Below are positions 5,481-5,536 of a stretch of DNA of 14,035 nucleotides, piece after piece. A model generated the notes under the pieces. That model saw nothing but the letters and a program-made list of their open reading frames with translations. It was not told the origin of the DNA and made no database searches. Position 1 is the stretch's first letter. Every line of letters begins with the position of its first letter. The DNA comes from a virus. The stretch is from positions 1 to 14,035 of IMG/VR virus record IMGVR_UViG_3300005935_005627, one strand, 5' to 3'. The position numbers and the translations under genes were made by a program.

Positions 5481-5536
5481 GCTATGAAAGCACATTGGTA
5501 GATTAATCCCCGACCCCCATAAGGTATTATTTTTAT

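What the first reader, a model, noticed from the sequence alone, without database searches (positions are those of the whole stretch)
5484..5522. Third ATG-proximal in-frame TAG in the identical TAG-ATT-AAT context: a 12-codon mini-ORF ahead of the palindromic repeat array
ATG AAA GCA CAT TGG TAG ATT AAT CCC CGA CCC CCA TAA encodes M-K-A-H-W-[TAG]-I-N-P-R-P-P-stop. The three in-frame TAGs seen in this window (4201, 4948, 5499) all sit within six codons of an ATG and all sit in the octamer TAGATTAA. That points to a shared translational element. It could be a preferred suppression context, or a start-stop / AUU-reinitiation device that senses suppressor-tRNA or IF3 status. The C-rich tail (CCCCGACCCCCA, encoding Pro-Arg-Pro-Pro) suggests a stalling leader peptide. 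It sits directly upstream of the operator-like repeats and gene 5645.
Basis: seen in the sequence. Interest (0 to 1): 0.55.

Follow-up and report, generated by a model that had tools for sequence, protein, structure and literature searches.

The report
Amber-codon-gated stalling leader peptide
A 12-codon mini-gene in this phage contains a stop codon that only the phage's own suppressor tRNA can read through, and it appears to switch on the neighbouring gene only once the phage has begun to re-read that stop codon as an amino acid.

Summary
The sequence is as described: 5484-5522 reads ATG AAA GCA CAT TGG TAG ATT AAT CCC CGA CCC CCA TAA. TAGATTAA occurs only at 4201, 4948 and 5499.

The octamer count is not above chance (1.8 expected). 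Sites 4201 and 4948 are two copies of one thing: the 5' end of a PTH2-like peptidyl-tRNA hydrolase gene, duplicated along with an HNH homing endonuclease.

The mini-ORF is real. At least 27 versions in diverse viral contigs keep this pattern, with synonymous codon turnover: ATG, 0-7 codons, TAG, usually Ile or Val, then mostly Arg/Lys, (Pro/Ser/Gly/Ala), Pro, stop. They lie on the same strand as a conserved trio: the PTH2-like gene, a roughly 105-aa helical protein X (5645-5962) and a tRNA-CUA (5991-6064).

Bases 5523-5536, just after the mini-ORF stop, pair with 5631-5644, just before X's ATG. This complementarity holds in 23 loci with different sequences (-13.4 versus -6.6 kcal/mol for mismatched pairs, p<5e-5).

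Best reading: a leader peptide gated by amber suppression that stalls at a Pro-stop ending. It unmasks X's start only when the suppressor tRNA works. About 40 of 59 PTH2-like genes carry a similar N-terminal TAG. I found no prior description. All evidence is computational.

The parts
5484..5522 (+). Leader mini-ORF MKAHW-[TAG]-INPRPP-stop
   Evidence: Read. Relatives keep the peptide with synonymous changes: L001 and L090 MKSHWxINPRPP, L088 MKTHWxIKNRGP, L092 MKTHWxIRNRGP, L112 MKTHWxIKIRGP. The wider family has 27 members.
5499..5501 (+). In-frame TAG, the amber gate
   Evidence: The TAG is kept in every family member at codon 2-8. It is followed by a purine in 23 of 27 and by T at +5 in 24 of 27. 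In the window it lies 24 nt upstream of the first paired base of the stem; across loci this distance is at least 11 nt (derived by hand from the offsets and the peptide lengths).
5511..5522 (+). Arg-Pro-Pro-TAA: stall-type, slow-termination C-terminus
   Evidence: C-terminal tripeptides in the family: RPP 7, KPP 5, RGP 4, RSP 4, GPP 2, RAP 1 and others. Arg is written with 5 different codons, Ser with both TCN and AGY, and Pro with all 4 codons. R-x-P is the P-site part of RAPP-like arrest motifs; x = G, A, S or P are the permissive residues (PMC12992588; PMC10951233).
5523..5536 (+). 5' arm of the stem that masks the start of gene X; begins at the first base after the stop codon
   Evidence: MFE and centroid folds of 5478-5665 pair 5523-5536 with 5631-5644. 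The repeat finder reports 5525-5536 and 5631-5642 as 12 nt, 100% complementary. Equivalent arms exist in 23 loci.
5535..5636 (+). Two 51-nt direct repeats, each with a 12-13 bp palindrome (core GACA-N3-TGTC), inside the loop of the stem
   Evidence: They fold into a long inner hairpin. Copy number and sequence differ in L090, L092 and L112, and L001 and L088 lack them.
5631..5644 (+). 3' arm of the stem: the A-rich leader of gene X, ending at position -1 of its ATG
   Evidence: Probability that the start region of X (positions -15 to +3) is unpaired: 0.20 with no ribosome, 0.20 with a ribosome at TAG, 0.90 with a ribosome at the terminal stop.
5645..5962 (+). Gene X, the regulated gene: conserved 105-aa three-helix protein of unknown function
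   Evidence: 22 homologues, no Pfam domain. HMM hits next to PTH2-like genes in 27 loci. AlphaFold pLDDT 88, three helices. No significant PDB fold match. No hit in deposited phage genomes.
5991..6064 (+). tRNA with anticodon CUA (amber suppressor), 28 nt after X
   Evidence: ARAGORN and Rfam tRNA at 59 bits. A tRNA-CUA lies within 3 kb on the same strand in 49 of 64 loci.
4942..5283 (+). PTH2-like peptidyl-tRNA hydrolase gene with an N-terminal gate (ATG ATA TAG ATT...)
   Evidence: Pfam PF01981 matches from residue 3 after the ATT at 4951, profile positions 2-113 of 115. The first ATG after the TAG (5002) would remove conserved residues. About 40 of 59 homologues have one TAG 1-10 codons after the ATG.
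5280..5480 (+). 66-aa ORF linking PTH2 to the mini-ORF by start/stop overlap or near-abutment
   Evidence: Its ATG overlaps the PTH2 stop (ATGA at 5280-5283). Its stop at 5478-5480 is 3 nt before the mini-ORF ATG. This gene is replaced by an unrelated one in L001, while the mini-ORF is kept.
4195..4938 (+). HNH-NUMOD3 homing endonuclease fused in frame to a second copy of the PTH2 5' end, including its TAG gate (4201)
   Evidence: L001 has the same arrangement.

Best explanation
5484-5522 is a translated leader ORF that reports whether amber (TAG) suppression is active, and it passes that signal to the start of the next gene.

Proposed steps:
1. Ribosomes start at the ATG, fed by coupling from the upstream PTH2/ORF66 chain.
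2. At codon 6 they meet TAG. If host RF1 wins, the pentapeptide is released 24 nt short of the stem, and nothing changes.
3. If the phage's tRNA-CUA (5991-6064) decodes the TAG, the ribosome reads six more codons and arrives at Arg-Pro-Pro-TAA. This is an R-x-P nascent end on the P-site tRNA with a stop in the A site, a context expected to terminate slowly.
4. While parked there, the ribosome covers 5523-5536, the bases that otherwise pair with 5631-5644. The A-rich leader and ATG of gene X (5645) are freed, and X is translated.

The PTH2-like gene uses the same gate directly, with a TAG at codon 3. So PTH2 and X are made only after the code switch has taken effect.

Shown by sequence analysis only:
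- conservation of the ORF pattern with synonymous turnover;
- linkage to X, PTH2 and tRNA-CUA;
- conserved complementarity of the two arms;
- geometry (TAG at least 11 nt upstream of the stem; stem starting -6 to +2 nt from the stop).

Inferred:
- that TAG is decoded by this tRNA;
- that R-x-P-stop stalls termination;
- that the stem blocks initiation of X;
- what X and PTH2 do afterwards.
For: 1. Coding-type conservation.
- Six window-type sequences keep M-K-x-H-W-TAG-I-..-R-[PG]-P-stop. Arg is written CGA, AGA or CGT and Pro CCA, CCT or CCC.
- The flanking gene and spacer are unrelated between the window and L001.

2. Family-wide pattern.
- 27 mini-ORFs share the pattern.
- Among TAG-containing mini-ORFs, 34 of 257 on the PTH2 strand end in Pro, against 1 of 118 on the other strand.
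- 16 versus 0 end in Pro-Pro.

3. Initiation signals.
- The ATG overlaps or lies 0-15 nt after an upstream stop, or follows AAGGAG or AAGGAGGTGA in relatives that use Shine-Dalgarno sequences.

4. Linkage.
- X follows the mini-ORF in at least 17 loci.
- tRNA-CUA is within 3 kb in 49 of 64 loci.
- Arrangements are complementary. Either the mini-ORF precedes X and then an ungated PTH2; or a gated PTH2 comes first, then the mini-ORF, then X; or a gated PTH2 overlaps X directly.

5. Stem.
- Native arm pairs average -13.4 kcal/mol, against -6.6 for mismatched locus pairs (0 of 20,000 permutations reach the native mean).
- Ordinary gene junctions average -7.05 (n=107).
- In the window, the repeat finder reports a 12-nt exact core, and the 14-bp stem appears in both the MFE and centroid folds (z = -8.5 for the whole segment).

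6. Three-state folding.
- The start region is unpaired with probability 0.39 (free), 0.39 (ribosome at TAG) and 0.72 (ribosome at the terminal stop), Wilcoxon p = 1e-6.
- For the window the values are 0.20, 0.20 and 0.90.

7. Literature.
- R-x-P with x = G, A, S or P is the P-site half of RAPP-type arrest motifs.
- C-terminal prolines and the base after UAG affect release-factor efficiency (PMC6412442).
- An engineered precedent places UAG in a leader peptide so that expression depends on tRNA-CUA.
Against: - Everything is computational. No stall, read-through or regulation has been measured.
- Known RAPP arrests need Pro-tRNA (or Gly-tRNA) in the A site, not a stop codon, and Arg was irreplaceable there. 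Yet 11 of 27 mini-ORFs have Lys, Gly, Glu or Asn at that position.
- The arms are AU-rich and the loci are phylogenetically related, so the p-values overstate independence.
- In the fusion-type loci (L072, L075, L076, L078) the modelled opening effect is weak. By eye, a sigma70-like promoter lies between the mini-ORF and the gene, which would separate them on different transcripts.
- In some loci the last Pro codons themselves pair with ...AUGG of the next gene. Part of the CCN conservation could therefore be at the RNA level.
- The window's spacer may contain its own promoter or operator (the palindromes).
- No other recoded gene is visible in this 14-kb window. Genome-wide TAG reassignment in this phage is therefore not shown, and the amino acid inserted is unknown.
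- In mycobacteriophages Cane17 and Myrna, the Shine-Dalgarno spacing favours a GTG start just after the TAG. The gate may therefore not operate in every lineage.
Confidence: 0.6

Rival explanations
1. Same amber-gated leader ORF, but the output is transcriptional, as with tnaC. A ribosome that has passed the TAG and sits on the Pro-stop blocks Rho or a processing nuclease on the U-rich tract after the stop. Transcription then continues into X and the tRNA-CUA gene, giving positive feedback on suppressor supply.
For: - A C-terminal Pro followed by a stop is the tnaC arrangement (PMC8450073; refs 111-113 of PMC6412442).
- The tRNA-CUA gene follows X by 22-29 nt in the window, L001, L017, L019, L020, L024 and L025, so read-through would raise suppressor levels.
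- The engineered UAG-in-leader switch worked this way.
Against: - The 3' arm of the conserved stem ends at or over the start codon or Shine-Dalgarno sequence of the next gene in most loci. That is the signature of translational masking.
- No terminator-like hairpin with a U-run lies in 5523-5644.
- Rho sites cannot be recognised from sequence, so this explanation may well operate alongside the main one.
Confidence: 0.15
2. The TAG is a true stop. The element would then be a start-stop minigene (MKAHW here, MK in relatives), like the lambda bar minigenes. It would either shed peptidyl-tRNA, which fits its neighbour being a peptidyl-tRNA hydrolase, or allow re-initiation at the following AUU.
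For: - The PTH2 gene begins ATG ATA TAG, the same two sense codons as the lambda bar minigenes (own knowledge).
- ATT, ATA, ATC or ATG follows the TAG in 19 of 42 PTH2 gates and 14 of 27 mini-ORFs.
- In Cane17 and Myrna the annotated start is a GTG directly after the TAG, with good Shine-Dalgarno spacing.
Against: - Peptide-level conservation continues past the TAG to an R-x-P-stop, in frame.
- 23 of 42 PTH2 gates and 13 of 27 mini-ORFs are followed by a codon that is not an initiation codon: 15 and 6 by ACA, AAC, TTC, CAC and similar, and 8 and 7 by GTA, GTT or GTC.
- A tRNA-CUA is next door in 49 of 64 loci.
- TAG is never used as a terminator in the window.
Confidence: 0.08
3. The mini-ORF product acts in trans: a short Pro/Arg-rich peptide, reminiscent of proline-rich antimicrobial peptides, that binds ribosomes or release factors to favour read-through.
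For: The PRPP motif in the window peptide resembles the cores of apidaecin and oncocin (own knowledge). It sits among translation-related genes.
Against: - Family members are as short as 6-8 residues (MRxFKPP, MTHxIRSP).
- Only the last three residues and the residue after the TAG are conserved. That fits a cis-acting nascent-chain signal, not a folded or tunnel-binding ligand.
- The conserved stem links the ORF to the next gene in cis.
Confidence: 0.04
4. It is not translated. The conservation would reflect a DNA or RNA element such as a promoter, operator or stem arm, and the ORF-like appearance would be coincidence.
For: - The octamer count is at chance level.
- TAGATT resembles a -10 hexamer.
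- The last codons take part in the stem in many loci.
Against: - The pattern ATG...TAG...Pro-stop is kept across sequences that share almost no nucleotides.
- Arg, Ser and Pro are each written with several synonymous codons, including the CGN/AGA and TCN/AGY switches.
- There is strand specificity, 34 versus 1.
- Shine-Dalgarno sequences or stop/start overlaps sit in front of the ATG.
Confidence: 0.03

Closest known systems
Leader-peptide translational attenuators (ermC/ermB, cat, cmlA, secM-secA, mifM-yidC2)
   Same: A short upstream ORF; a ribosome held at a defined codon; and an mRNA stem whose 5' arm lies under that ribosome and whose 3' arm covers the start region of the next gene.
   Different: The input is not an antibiotic or a secretion activity. 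It is whether an in-frame TAG is read through. The stall site is the stop codon of a 6-13-residue peptide. The setting is a phage module with a suppressor tRNA.
RAPP-like arrest peptides (ApdA, ApdP, ApcA; SecM RAGP) - PMC10951233, PMC7897499, PMC12992588
   Same: The nascent chain ends in R-x-P on the P-site tRNA, with x drawn from the same permissive set (Ala, Gly, Ser, Pro).
   Different: - The A site holds a stop codon rather than a Pro or Gly codon.
- Arg is replaced by Lys, Gly, Glu or Asn in 11 of 27 members.
- There is no signal peptide or membrane anchor.
- It is not upstream of Sec/YidC genes.
- The peptide is far shorter.
TnaC / tna operon
   Same: A leader peptide ending in Pro followed by a stop. 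Arrest occurs at termination and controls downstream expression.
   Different: TnaC senses free tryptophan through a 24-residue peptide and acts through Rho. Here the gate is a TAG codon, and the conserved stem points to translational unmasking.
Engineered 'Uaa switch': UAG inserted in a leader peptide so that expression requires tRNA-CUA (review PMC6412442, section 6)
   Same: The logic is identical: translation of a leader beyond an inserted UAG is required for downstream expression.
   Different: That system is synthetic, built on trp/tna leaders, and acts transcriptionally. This one is a natural element with its own stall motif and stem.
AMD1 read-through-then-stall tail (PMC13025110)
   Same: Ribosomes that read through a stop codon are arrested at the next in-frame stop by the nascent C-terminus.
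   Different: AMD1 is eukaryotic and has a 127-codon tail. It limits translation of its own mRNA rather than switching on a downstream gene.
prfB (RF2) autoregulation
   Same: An early in-frame stop codon serves as a sensor of the competition between a release factor and an alternative decoding event.
   Different: prfB needs a +1 frameshift and senses RF2. Here the reading frame is unchanged, and the competitor is a suppressor tRNA against RF1.
Stop-codon-recoded phages and their 'code change module' (Borges et al., bioRxiv 10.1101/2021.08.26.457843)
   Same: A suppressor tRNA is carried by the phage, and in-frame stop codons are proposed to time gene expression.
   Different: The described module consists of suppressor tRNA, aminoacyl-tRNA synthetase and release factor, with recoded codons scattered in late and lysis genes. 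The paper does not contain the words hydrolase, N-term, leader or upstream ORF, so it reports no PTH2-like gene, N-terminal gate or leader ORF.

Membership tests
Leader-peptide translational attenuator (erm/cat/secM type) | Short ORF upstream of, and on the same strand as, the regulated gene, with its own initiation signals | tested here: met
   The ATG is 3 nt after the upstream stop in the window. Relatives have stop/start overlaps or AAGGAG / AAGGAGGTGA. X follows at 56-146 nt.
Leader-peptide translational attenuator (erm/cat/secM type) | Peptide-level conservation of a stall determinant | tested here: met
   R/K-[PSGA]-P-stop is kept with synonymous codon turnover in 27 members.
Leader-peptide translational attenuator (erm/cat/secM type) | mRNA stem masking the downstream start region, with its 5' arm inside the footprint of the stalled ribosome | tested here: met
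   Window stem 5523-5536 with 5631-5644. 23 loci: -13.4 versus -6.6 kcal/mol, p<5e-5. Control junctions -7.05. Three-state folding.
Leader-peptide translational attenuator (erm/cat/secM type) | Demonstrated ribosome stall and induction of the downstream gene | not testable with these tools
   This needs toeprinting and reporter assays.
RAPP-like arrest peptides | R-A/G-P as the last three residues on the P-site tRNA | tested here: inconclusive
   R-[P/S/G/A]-P in 16 of 27. In the other 11, Lys, Gly, Glu or Asn replaces Arg, whereas Arg is irreplaceable in ApdA, ApdP and ApcA.
RAPP-like arrest peptides | Pro (or Gly) codon in the A site at the arrest point | tested here: not met
   A stop codon follows: TAA in 21 of 27 and TGA in 3 of 27 in the set (that set differs slightly from the set).
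RAPP-like arrest peptides | Secretory or membrane N-terminus, encoded upstream of Sec/YidC genes | tested here: not met
   The peptides are 6-13 residues long, and the downstream gene is X or a PTH2 fusion.
TnaC-type termination arrest with Rho control | C-terminal Pro followed directly by a stop codon | tested here: met
   Pro-stop in all 27. Note that Pro-stop was part of how members were collected. The unbiased count is 34 of 257 versus 1 of 118.
TnaC-type termination arrest with Rho control | Ligand-sensing residues (W12, D16) and a Rho-dependent spacer | not testable with these tools
   The peptide is too short for the TnaC layout, and Rho sites are not predictable from sequence.
trpL-type transcription attenuator | Terminator hairpin with a U-run, plus an alternative antiterminator, downstream of the leader | tested here: not met
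   No terminator-like site on the + strand in 5523-5644.
Lambda bar-like minigene | A two- or three-codon ORF whose only product is a very short peptidyl-tRNA, with no selection beyond the stop | tested here: not met
   In-frame peptide conservation continues beyond the TAG.
Stop-codon-reassigned (TAG sense) phage coding | Phage-encoded tRNA with anticodon CUA | tested here: met
   5991-6064.
Stop-codon-reassigned (TAG sense) phage coding | TAG avoided as a terminator, and present in frame inside conserved coding sequence | tested here: met
   None of 25 genes ends in TAG. The PTH2 Pfam domain starts upstream of the first ATG after the TAG. The same holds in about 40 of 59 homologues.
Stop-codon-reassigned (TAG sense) phage coding | Many in-frame TAGs in late or structural genes; identity of the inserted amino acid | not tested
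   Late genes lie outside the window and L081. The tRNA identity is unresolved.
prfB-type autoregulatory stop | Programmed +1 frameshift at the early stop | tested here: not met
   Conserved sequence continues in the same frame.

The most novel reading that the evidence does not exclude
Phages that carry an amber-suppressor tRNA have a dedicated sensor of the genetic-code state. It is a leader peptide gated by a TAG and parked on an R-x-P-stop. It releases a conserved post-switch module (protein X and a PTH2-like peptidyl-tRNA hydrolase, co-located with the tRNA-CUA) only once suppression is working. This would be the first natural regulatory element whose input is stop-codon reassignment itself. 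It would also identify the long-missing targets of suppressor tRNAs in phages that are not globally recoded, such as XacN1 and the Bxz1-like mycobacteriophages.
Probability: 0.5. Interest if true: 0.88.

Novelty: new variant of a known kind. Interest (0 to 1): 0.8.

Why it matters
How recoded phages time and control the switch from the host's code to their own is an open question. Only suppressor tRNAs, a few synthetases and release factors have been implicated. For some phages the targets of the suppressor tRNA could not be found at all (XacN1).

This element and the matching N-terminal TAG in the PTH2-like gene supply three things:
- Concrete, conserved targets of the suppressor tRNA.
- A plausible checkpoint circuit that can be tested with simple reporters.
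- Two new proteins linked to the switch: X, and a phage PTH2-like hydrolase.

The element would also be a natural counterpart of a device that synthetic biologists built by hand (UAG in a leader peptide). It would be an example of an R-x-P arrest-type motif used at a stop codon.

Homologous PTH2/tRNA-CUA pairs exist in cultured mycobacteriophages, which gives a tractable system.

Tried and rejected
- The octamer as a motif: rejected as the unit of conservation. Its count is at chance, and relatives use other codons after the TAG.
- Promoter -10 reading of TAGATT: no consistent -35 element, and the sigma70 scan shows nothing at the three sites.
- Transcription terminator after the mini-ORF: none found.
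- Known RNA families: only the tRNA passes threshold. The sub-threshold miRNA-like hits just reflect the long hairpin.
- Near-identical phage genomes in GenBank: none.
- X in deposited phages: no hit.
- Function of X: no Pfam or PHROG match. The confident three-helix model has no significant PDB match; the best Foldseek E-value is 1.4. The afdb50 library was unavailable.
- Amino-acid identity of the tRNA-CUA, by similarity to other phage tRNAs: inconclusive. The nearest are CAT-anticodon tRNAs.
- Alignment-based covariation (RNAalifold on six window-type sequences): recovered the stem, but it was blurred by a register shift between the window type and the L001 type. Three pairs showed compensatory changes. 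I relied on per-locus duplex energies with permutation instead.
- Pattern search ATGAAANNNCAYTGGTAGAT in viral contigs: 35 hits, mostly chance. Only L098 (=L001), L112 and L095 end in Pro-stop. This served as an informal control.
- L010 569 MxKPP*: discarded because it lies inside a 421-aa ORF.
- Literature searches for PTH2 with suppressor tRNA and phage, and for an amber codon in a natural leader peptide: found nothing.
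Full report
**Observation**

The window is AT-rich (31% GC), and almost all its genes are on the + strand. The start codons lack Shine-Dalgarno sequences. All 25 tiled genes end in TAA or TGA, never TAG. A tRNA with anticodon CUA lies at 5991-6064.

The reported sequence is exact. ATG is at 5484, TAG at 5499 and TAA at 5520-5522, giving MKAHW-[TAG]-INPRPP-stop. TAGATTAA occurs three times, at 4201, 4948 and 5499, all on the + strand and each 2-5 codons after an in-frame ATG.

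As a bare count this is not unusual: shuffles give 1.83 copies, and 53 of 200 shuffles reach three.

**Sites 4201 and 4948 are one thing, duplicated**

Read through its TAG, the ORF from 4942 is a PTH2-type peptidyl-tRNA hydrolase. Pfam PF01981 aligns from the third residue after the ATT at 4951, at profile position 2. The first ATG after the TAG (5002) would therefore cut off conserved residues.

The ORF from 4195 begins MT-[TAG]-INHKLIIITRRDLHPGYQAV. This is a second copy of the same N-terminus, fused in frame to an HNH-NUMOD3 homing endonuclease. L001 has the same arrangement. The shared octamer at these two sites is therefore common descent.

**The N-terminal TAG of the PTH2-like gene is conserved**

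In 15 and then 64 viral loci found with this protein, the gene typically starts ATG, then 0-10 codons, then one TAG, then the conserved domain. MK-TAG is the commonest form.

About 40 of 59 distinct genes have this gate, counting L047, L053 and L074. They span 23-52% GC and 33-86% identity.

A tRNA-CUA lies on the same strand within 3 kb in 49 of 64 loci, often directly adjacent.

**The mini-ORF at 5484 is conserved as a coding unit**

L001 (86% identical PTH2) has ATG AAA TCA CAT TGG TAG ATT AAC CCA AGA CCA CCT TAA. That is five synonymous changes and one conservative change. Yet the gene upstream and the spacer downstream are unrelated to those of the window.

Further relatives, found through the downstream protein, give MKSHWxINPRPP, MKTHWxIKNRGP, MKTHWxIRNRGP and MKTHWxIKIRGP.

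Treating TAG as sense and scanning all loci shows a wider family. Its pattern is:
- M, then 0-7 residues, then TAG;
- usually Ile or Val next;
- 1-6 further residues;
- mostly Arg or Lys, then Pro/Ser/Gly/Ala, then Pro, then stop.

Controls and details:
- Of the TAG-containing mini-ORFs, 34 of 257 on the PTH2 strand end in Pro, against 1 of 118 on the opposite strand.
- Pro-Pro endings number 16 versus 0.
- Across 27 members the C-terminal tripeptides are RPP 7, KPP 5, RGP 4, RSP 4, GPP 2 and single others.
- Arg is written with five codons, Ser with both TCN and AGY, and Pro with all four. That is selection on the peptide, or on its translation, not on a nucleotide motif.
- The ATG overlaps or closely follows an upstream stop, or has a strong Shine-Dalgarno sequence in lineages that use them.

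**Genomic logic**

The mini-ORF is followed at 56-146 nt by a conserved 100-124-residue protein, which I call X (window 5645-5962). In some loci it is followed instead by a fusion of another domain with PTH2.

X, PTH2 and tRNA-CUA form a recurrent trio. The gates are distributed in a complementary way:
- When the order is mini-ORF, X, PTH2, the PTH2 gene has no TAG of its own (L050, L051, L057, L058, L060, L061, L071).
- When PTH2 comes first it carries the N-terminal TAG, and the mini-ORF precedes X (window, L001, L017, L019-L021, L024, L025, L042, L043).
- When X overlaps the stop of a gated PTH2 there is no mini-ORF (L044, L045, L047, L049).

X has no Pfam or PHROG family. It models confidently as three helices, with no significant structural match.

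**Mechanistic clue: a stem that masks the start of X**

In the window, 5523-5536 begins at the first base after the stop codon. It pairs with 5631-5644, which ends at the base before X's ATG.
- The 14-bp stem appears in the MFE and centroid folds of 5478-5665. The whole segment folds at -51.5 kcal/mol (z = -8.5), and most of that energy comes from the inner repeat hairpin; the arm duplex alone is -12.5 kcal/mol.
- The repeat finder independently reports its 12-nt exact core.

Each of 23 loci has the equivalent pairing, although the arm sequences differ. Examples are L001 AGTTTATTTTTGTT / AACAAAAATAAACT, L060 CTTTAATTTAA / TTAAATTAAAG and L072 TTCTTAATTT / AAATTAAGAA.
- Native arm pairs average -13.4 kcal/mol, against -6.6 (sd 3.2) for arms paired across loci. 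None of 20,000 permutations reaches the native mean.
- Ordinary gene junctions with similar gaps average -7.05.
- The 5' arm starts -6 to +2 nt from the stop.
- The 3' arm ends -10 to +5 nt from the A of the ATG, covering the A-rich leader or the Shine-Dalgarno sequence.
- By my reckoning and the peptide lengths, the TAG is always at least 11 nt upstream of the first paired base.

I then folded each leader while holding single-stranded the bases a ribosome would cover. The start region's unpaired probability is 0.39 with no ribosome, 0.39 with a ribosome at TAG, and 0.72 with a ribosome at the terminal stop (n=23, Wilcoxon p = 1e-6). For the window the values are 0.20, 0.20 and 0.90.

**Interpretation**

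This is the architecture of a leader-peptide translational attenuator, with a new input. A ribosome released at TAG never reaches the stem. A ribosome carried past TAG by the suppressor tRNA ends on R-x-P-stop and, while it waits to terminate, melts the 5' arm and exposes X's start.

The ending has known relatives:
- RAPP-type arrest peptides stall with peptidyl-R-A-P-tRNA in the P site (PMC10951233).
- The middle residue tolerates Gly fully, and Ser, Pro and Asp partly. RxPP with x = G, A, S or P came out of random screens (PMC12992588).
- C-terminal prolines lower termination efficiency, and the base after UAG modulates RF1 (PMC6412442).

The context after the gate TAG is a purine at +4 in 64 of 69 gates, against 20 of 36 other in-frame TAGs, with ATT the commonest codon. 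This fits selection for efficient suppression.

**Limits**

- Nothing here is experimental.
[quoted passage not shown] Here a stop codon follows, and Arg is replaced in 11 of 27.
- The loci are related and AU-rich, so the p-values are generous.
- In the fusion-type loci the modelled effect is weak, and a promoter-like sequence may lie between the ORF and the gene.
- In some loci the last Pro codons pair with ...AUGG of the next gene.
- The window's spacer has two 51-nt repeats with palindromes. Their core, GACA-N3-TGTC, recurs in relatives, so an operator or promoter could sit there.
- A Rho-dependent (tnaC-like) output cannot be excluded and could coexist with translational control.
- In mycobacteriophages Cane17 and Myrna the PTH gene reads ATG TAG GTG or GTG TAG GTG, with Shine-Dalgarno spacing that favours the GTG after the TAG. 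The gate may have decayed or work differently there.

**Comparison with the literature**

- The survey of recoded phages describes suppressor tRNAs, synthetases and release factors. It does not contain the words hydrolase, leader or N-term.
- No paper in the searched library combines PTH2, phage and suppressor tRNA.
- The XacN1 authors noted two CUA tRNAs and a peptidyl-tRNA hydrolase, but could not find what the suppressors act on.
- An engineered switch with UAG in a leader peptide exists.
- AMD1 offers a eukaryotic read-through-then-stall analogue.

I therefore rate this a new variant of leader-peptide attenuation. Its novelty lies in the sensed signal (stop-codon reassignment) and in the module it controls.

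**Verdict**

The octamer itself, AUU re-initiation and the three independent sites do not hold.

Confidence is about 0.85 that this is a conserved, translated, amber-gated mini-ORF tied to X, PTH2 and tRNA-CUA. Confidence is about 0.6 that it works by unmasking the start of X.

Noticed in passing
window 4195-4938: An HNH-NUMOD3 homing endonuclease is fused in frame to a duplicated 5' end of the PTH2-like gene, TAG included. The duplicated fragment (INHKLIIITRRDLHPGYQAV) resembles the PTH2 genes of other phages (for example L023 INNHKLIIITREDLKPGYQ) more than the window's own copy. This suggests the endonuclease arrived with flanking sequence from a donor phage. Its expression would then be amber-gated too.
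   Followed up: partly
window 165-2582: An 805-aa protein has Major Vault Protein shoulder, Vault_3 repeat and SPFH/Band 7 domains (PF11978 at 3.5e-27). This is an unusual thing to find in a phage-like genome. It also occurs in relative L090.
   Followed up: no
window 5535-5636: Two 51-nt direct repeats each carry a 12-13 bp palindrome. The palindrome core GACA-N3-TGTC recurs between the mini-ORF and X in L017, L020, L090, L092 and L112, and upstream of the mini-ORF in L057. Copy number varies (four half-repeats in L090). It could be an operator for an unknown DNA-binding protein, or just structural hairpins that bring the stem arms together.
   Followed up: partly
L002 249-620, L004 2706-3065, L006 3811-4162: Phage-encoded tmRNA genes lie a few kb upstream of the PTH2-like gene and tRNA-CUA. 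This suggests a ribosome-rescue theme around the suppressor module.
   Followed up: no
L129 (Mycobacterium phage Cane17) 2466-2480 and 3101-3173; L130 (Myrna) 2471-2480 and 2963-3034: In cultured mycobacteriophages the annotated 'peptidyl tRNA hydrolase' starts at a GTG immediately preceded by ATG TAG (Cane17) or GTG TAG (Myrna). A tRNA-CUA lies 130-250 nt downstream and is annotated as tRNA-OTHER or tRNA-Ser. 207 mycobacteriophage records carry the homologue.
   Followed up: partly
L007/L032 (PTH2 start, and tRNA at L007 6325-6398): One PTH2-like gene has TAC (Tyr) where relatives have the gate TAG (MNT-Y-KDND). The adjacent tRNA is called with an abnormal anticodon loop ('ct'). This may be a decayed gate and suppressor pair, or a hint about the amino acid inserted.
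   Followed up: no
L050 2634, L051 2642, L071 2623: These are variant mini-ORFs in which the codon after the terminal Pro is itself TAG, or TAG two codons later, rather than TAA: MTxINIRASP-TAG, MxIRPIFKPP-TAG, MTxVKNSNRSPPLI-TAG. How these terminate is unclear if TAG is read as sense.
   Followed up: no
L027/L046 3592-3664: A tRNA-like gene called with a two-base anticodon ('ga') sits directly upstream of the mini-ORF in the L002, L012, L027 and L046 group.
   Followed up: no
window 5968-5986: A GC-rich hairpin GTGGGG-TGTGATT-CCCCAC lies between the stop of X and the tRNA-CUA, and is conserved in L001 (3727-3745). The terminator scan scored it only on the - strand. It may instead be a processing signal for the tRNA.
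   Followed up: no
window 12770-13468 and 11361-12038: A second homing-endonuclease-type gene is present (GIY-YIG with a weak NUMOD3 hit, by the Pfam marks on the identical contig L081). There is also a single minus-strand gene (225 aa), whose CTA Leu codons produce a run of same-frame TAGs on the + strand.
   Followed up: no
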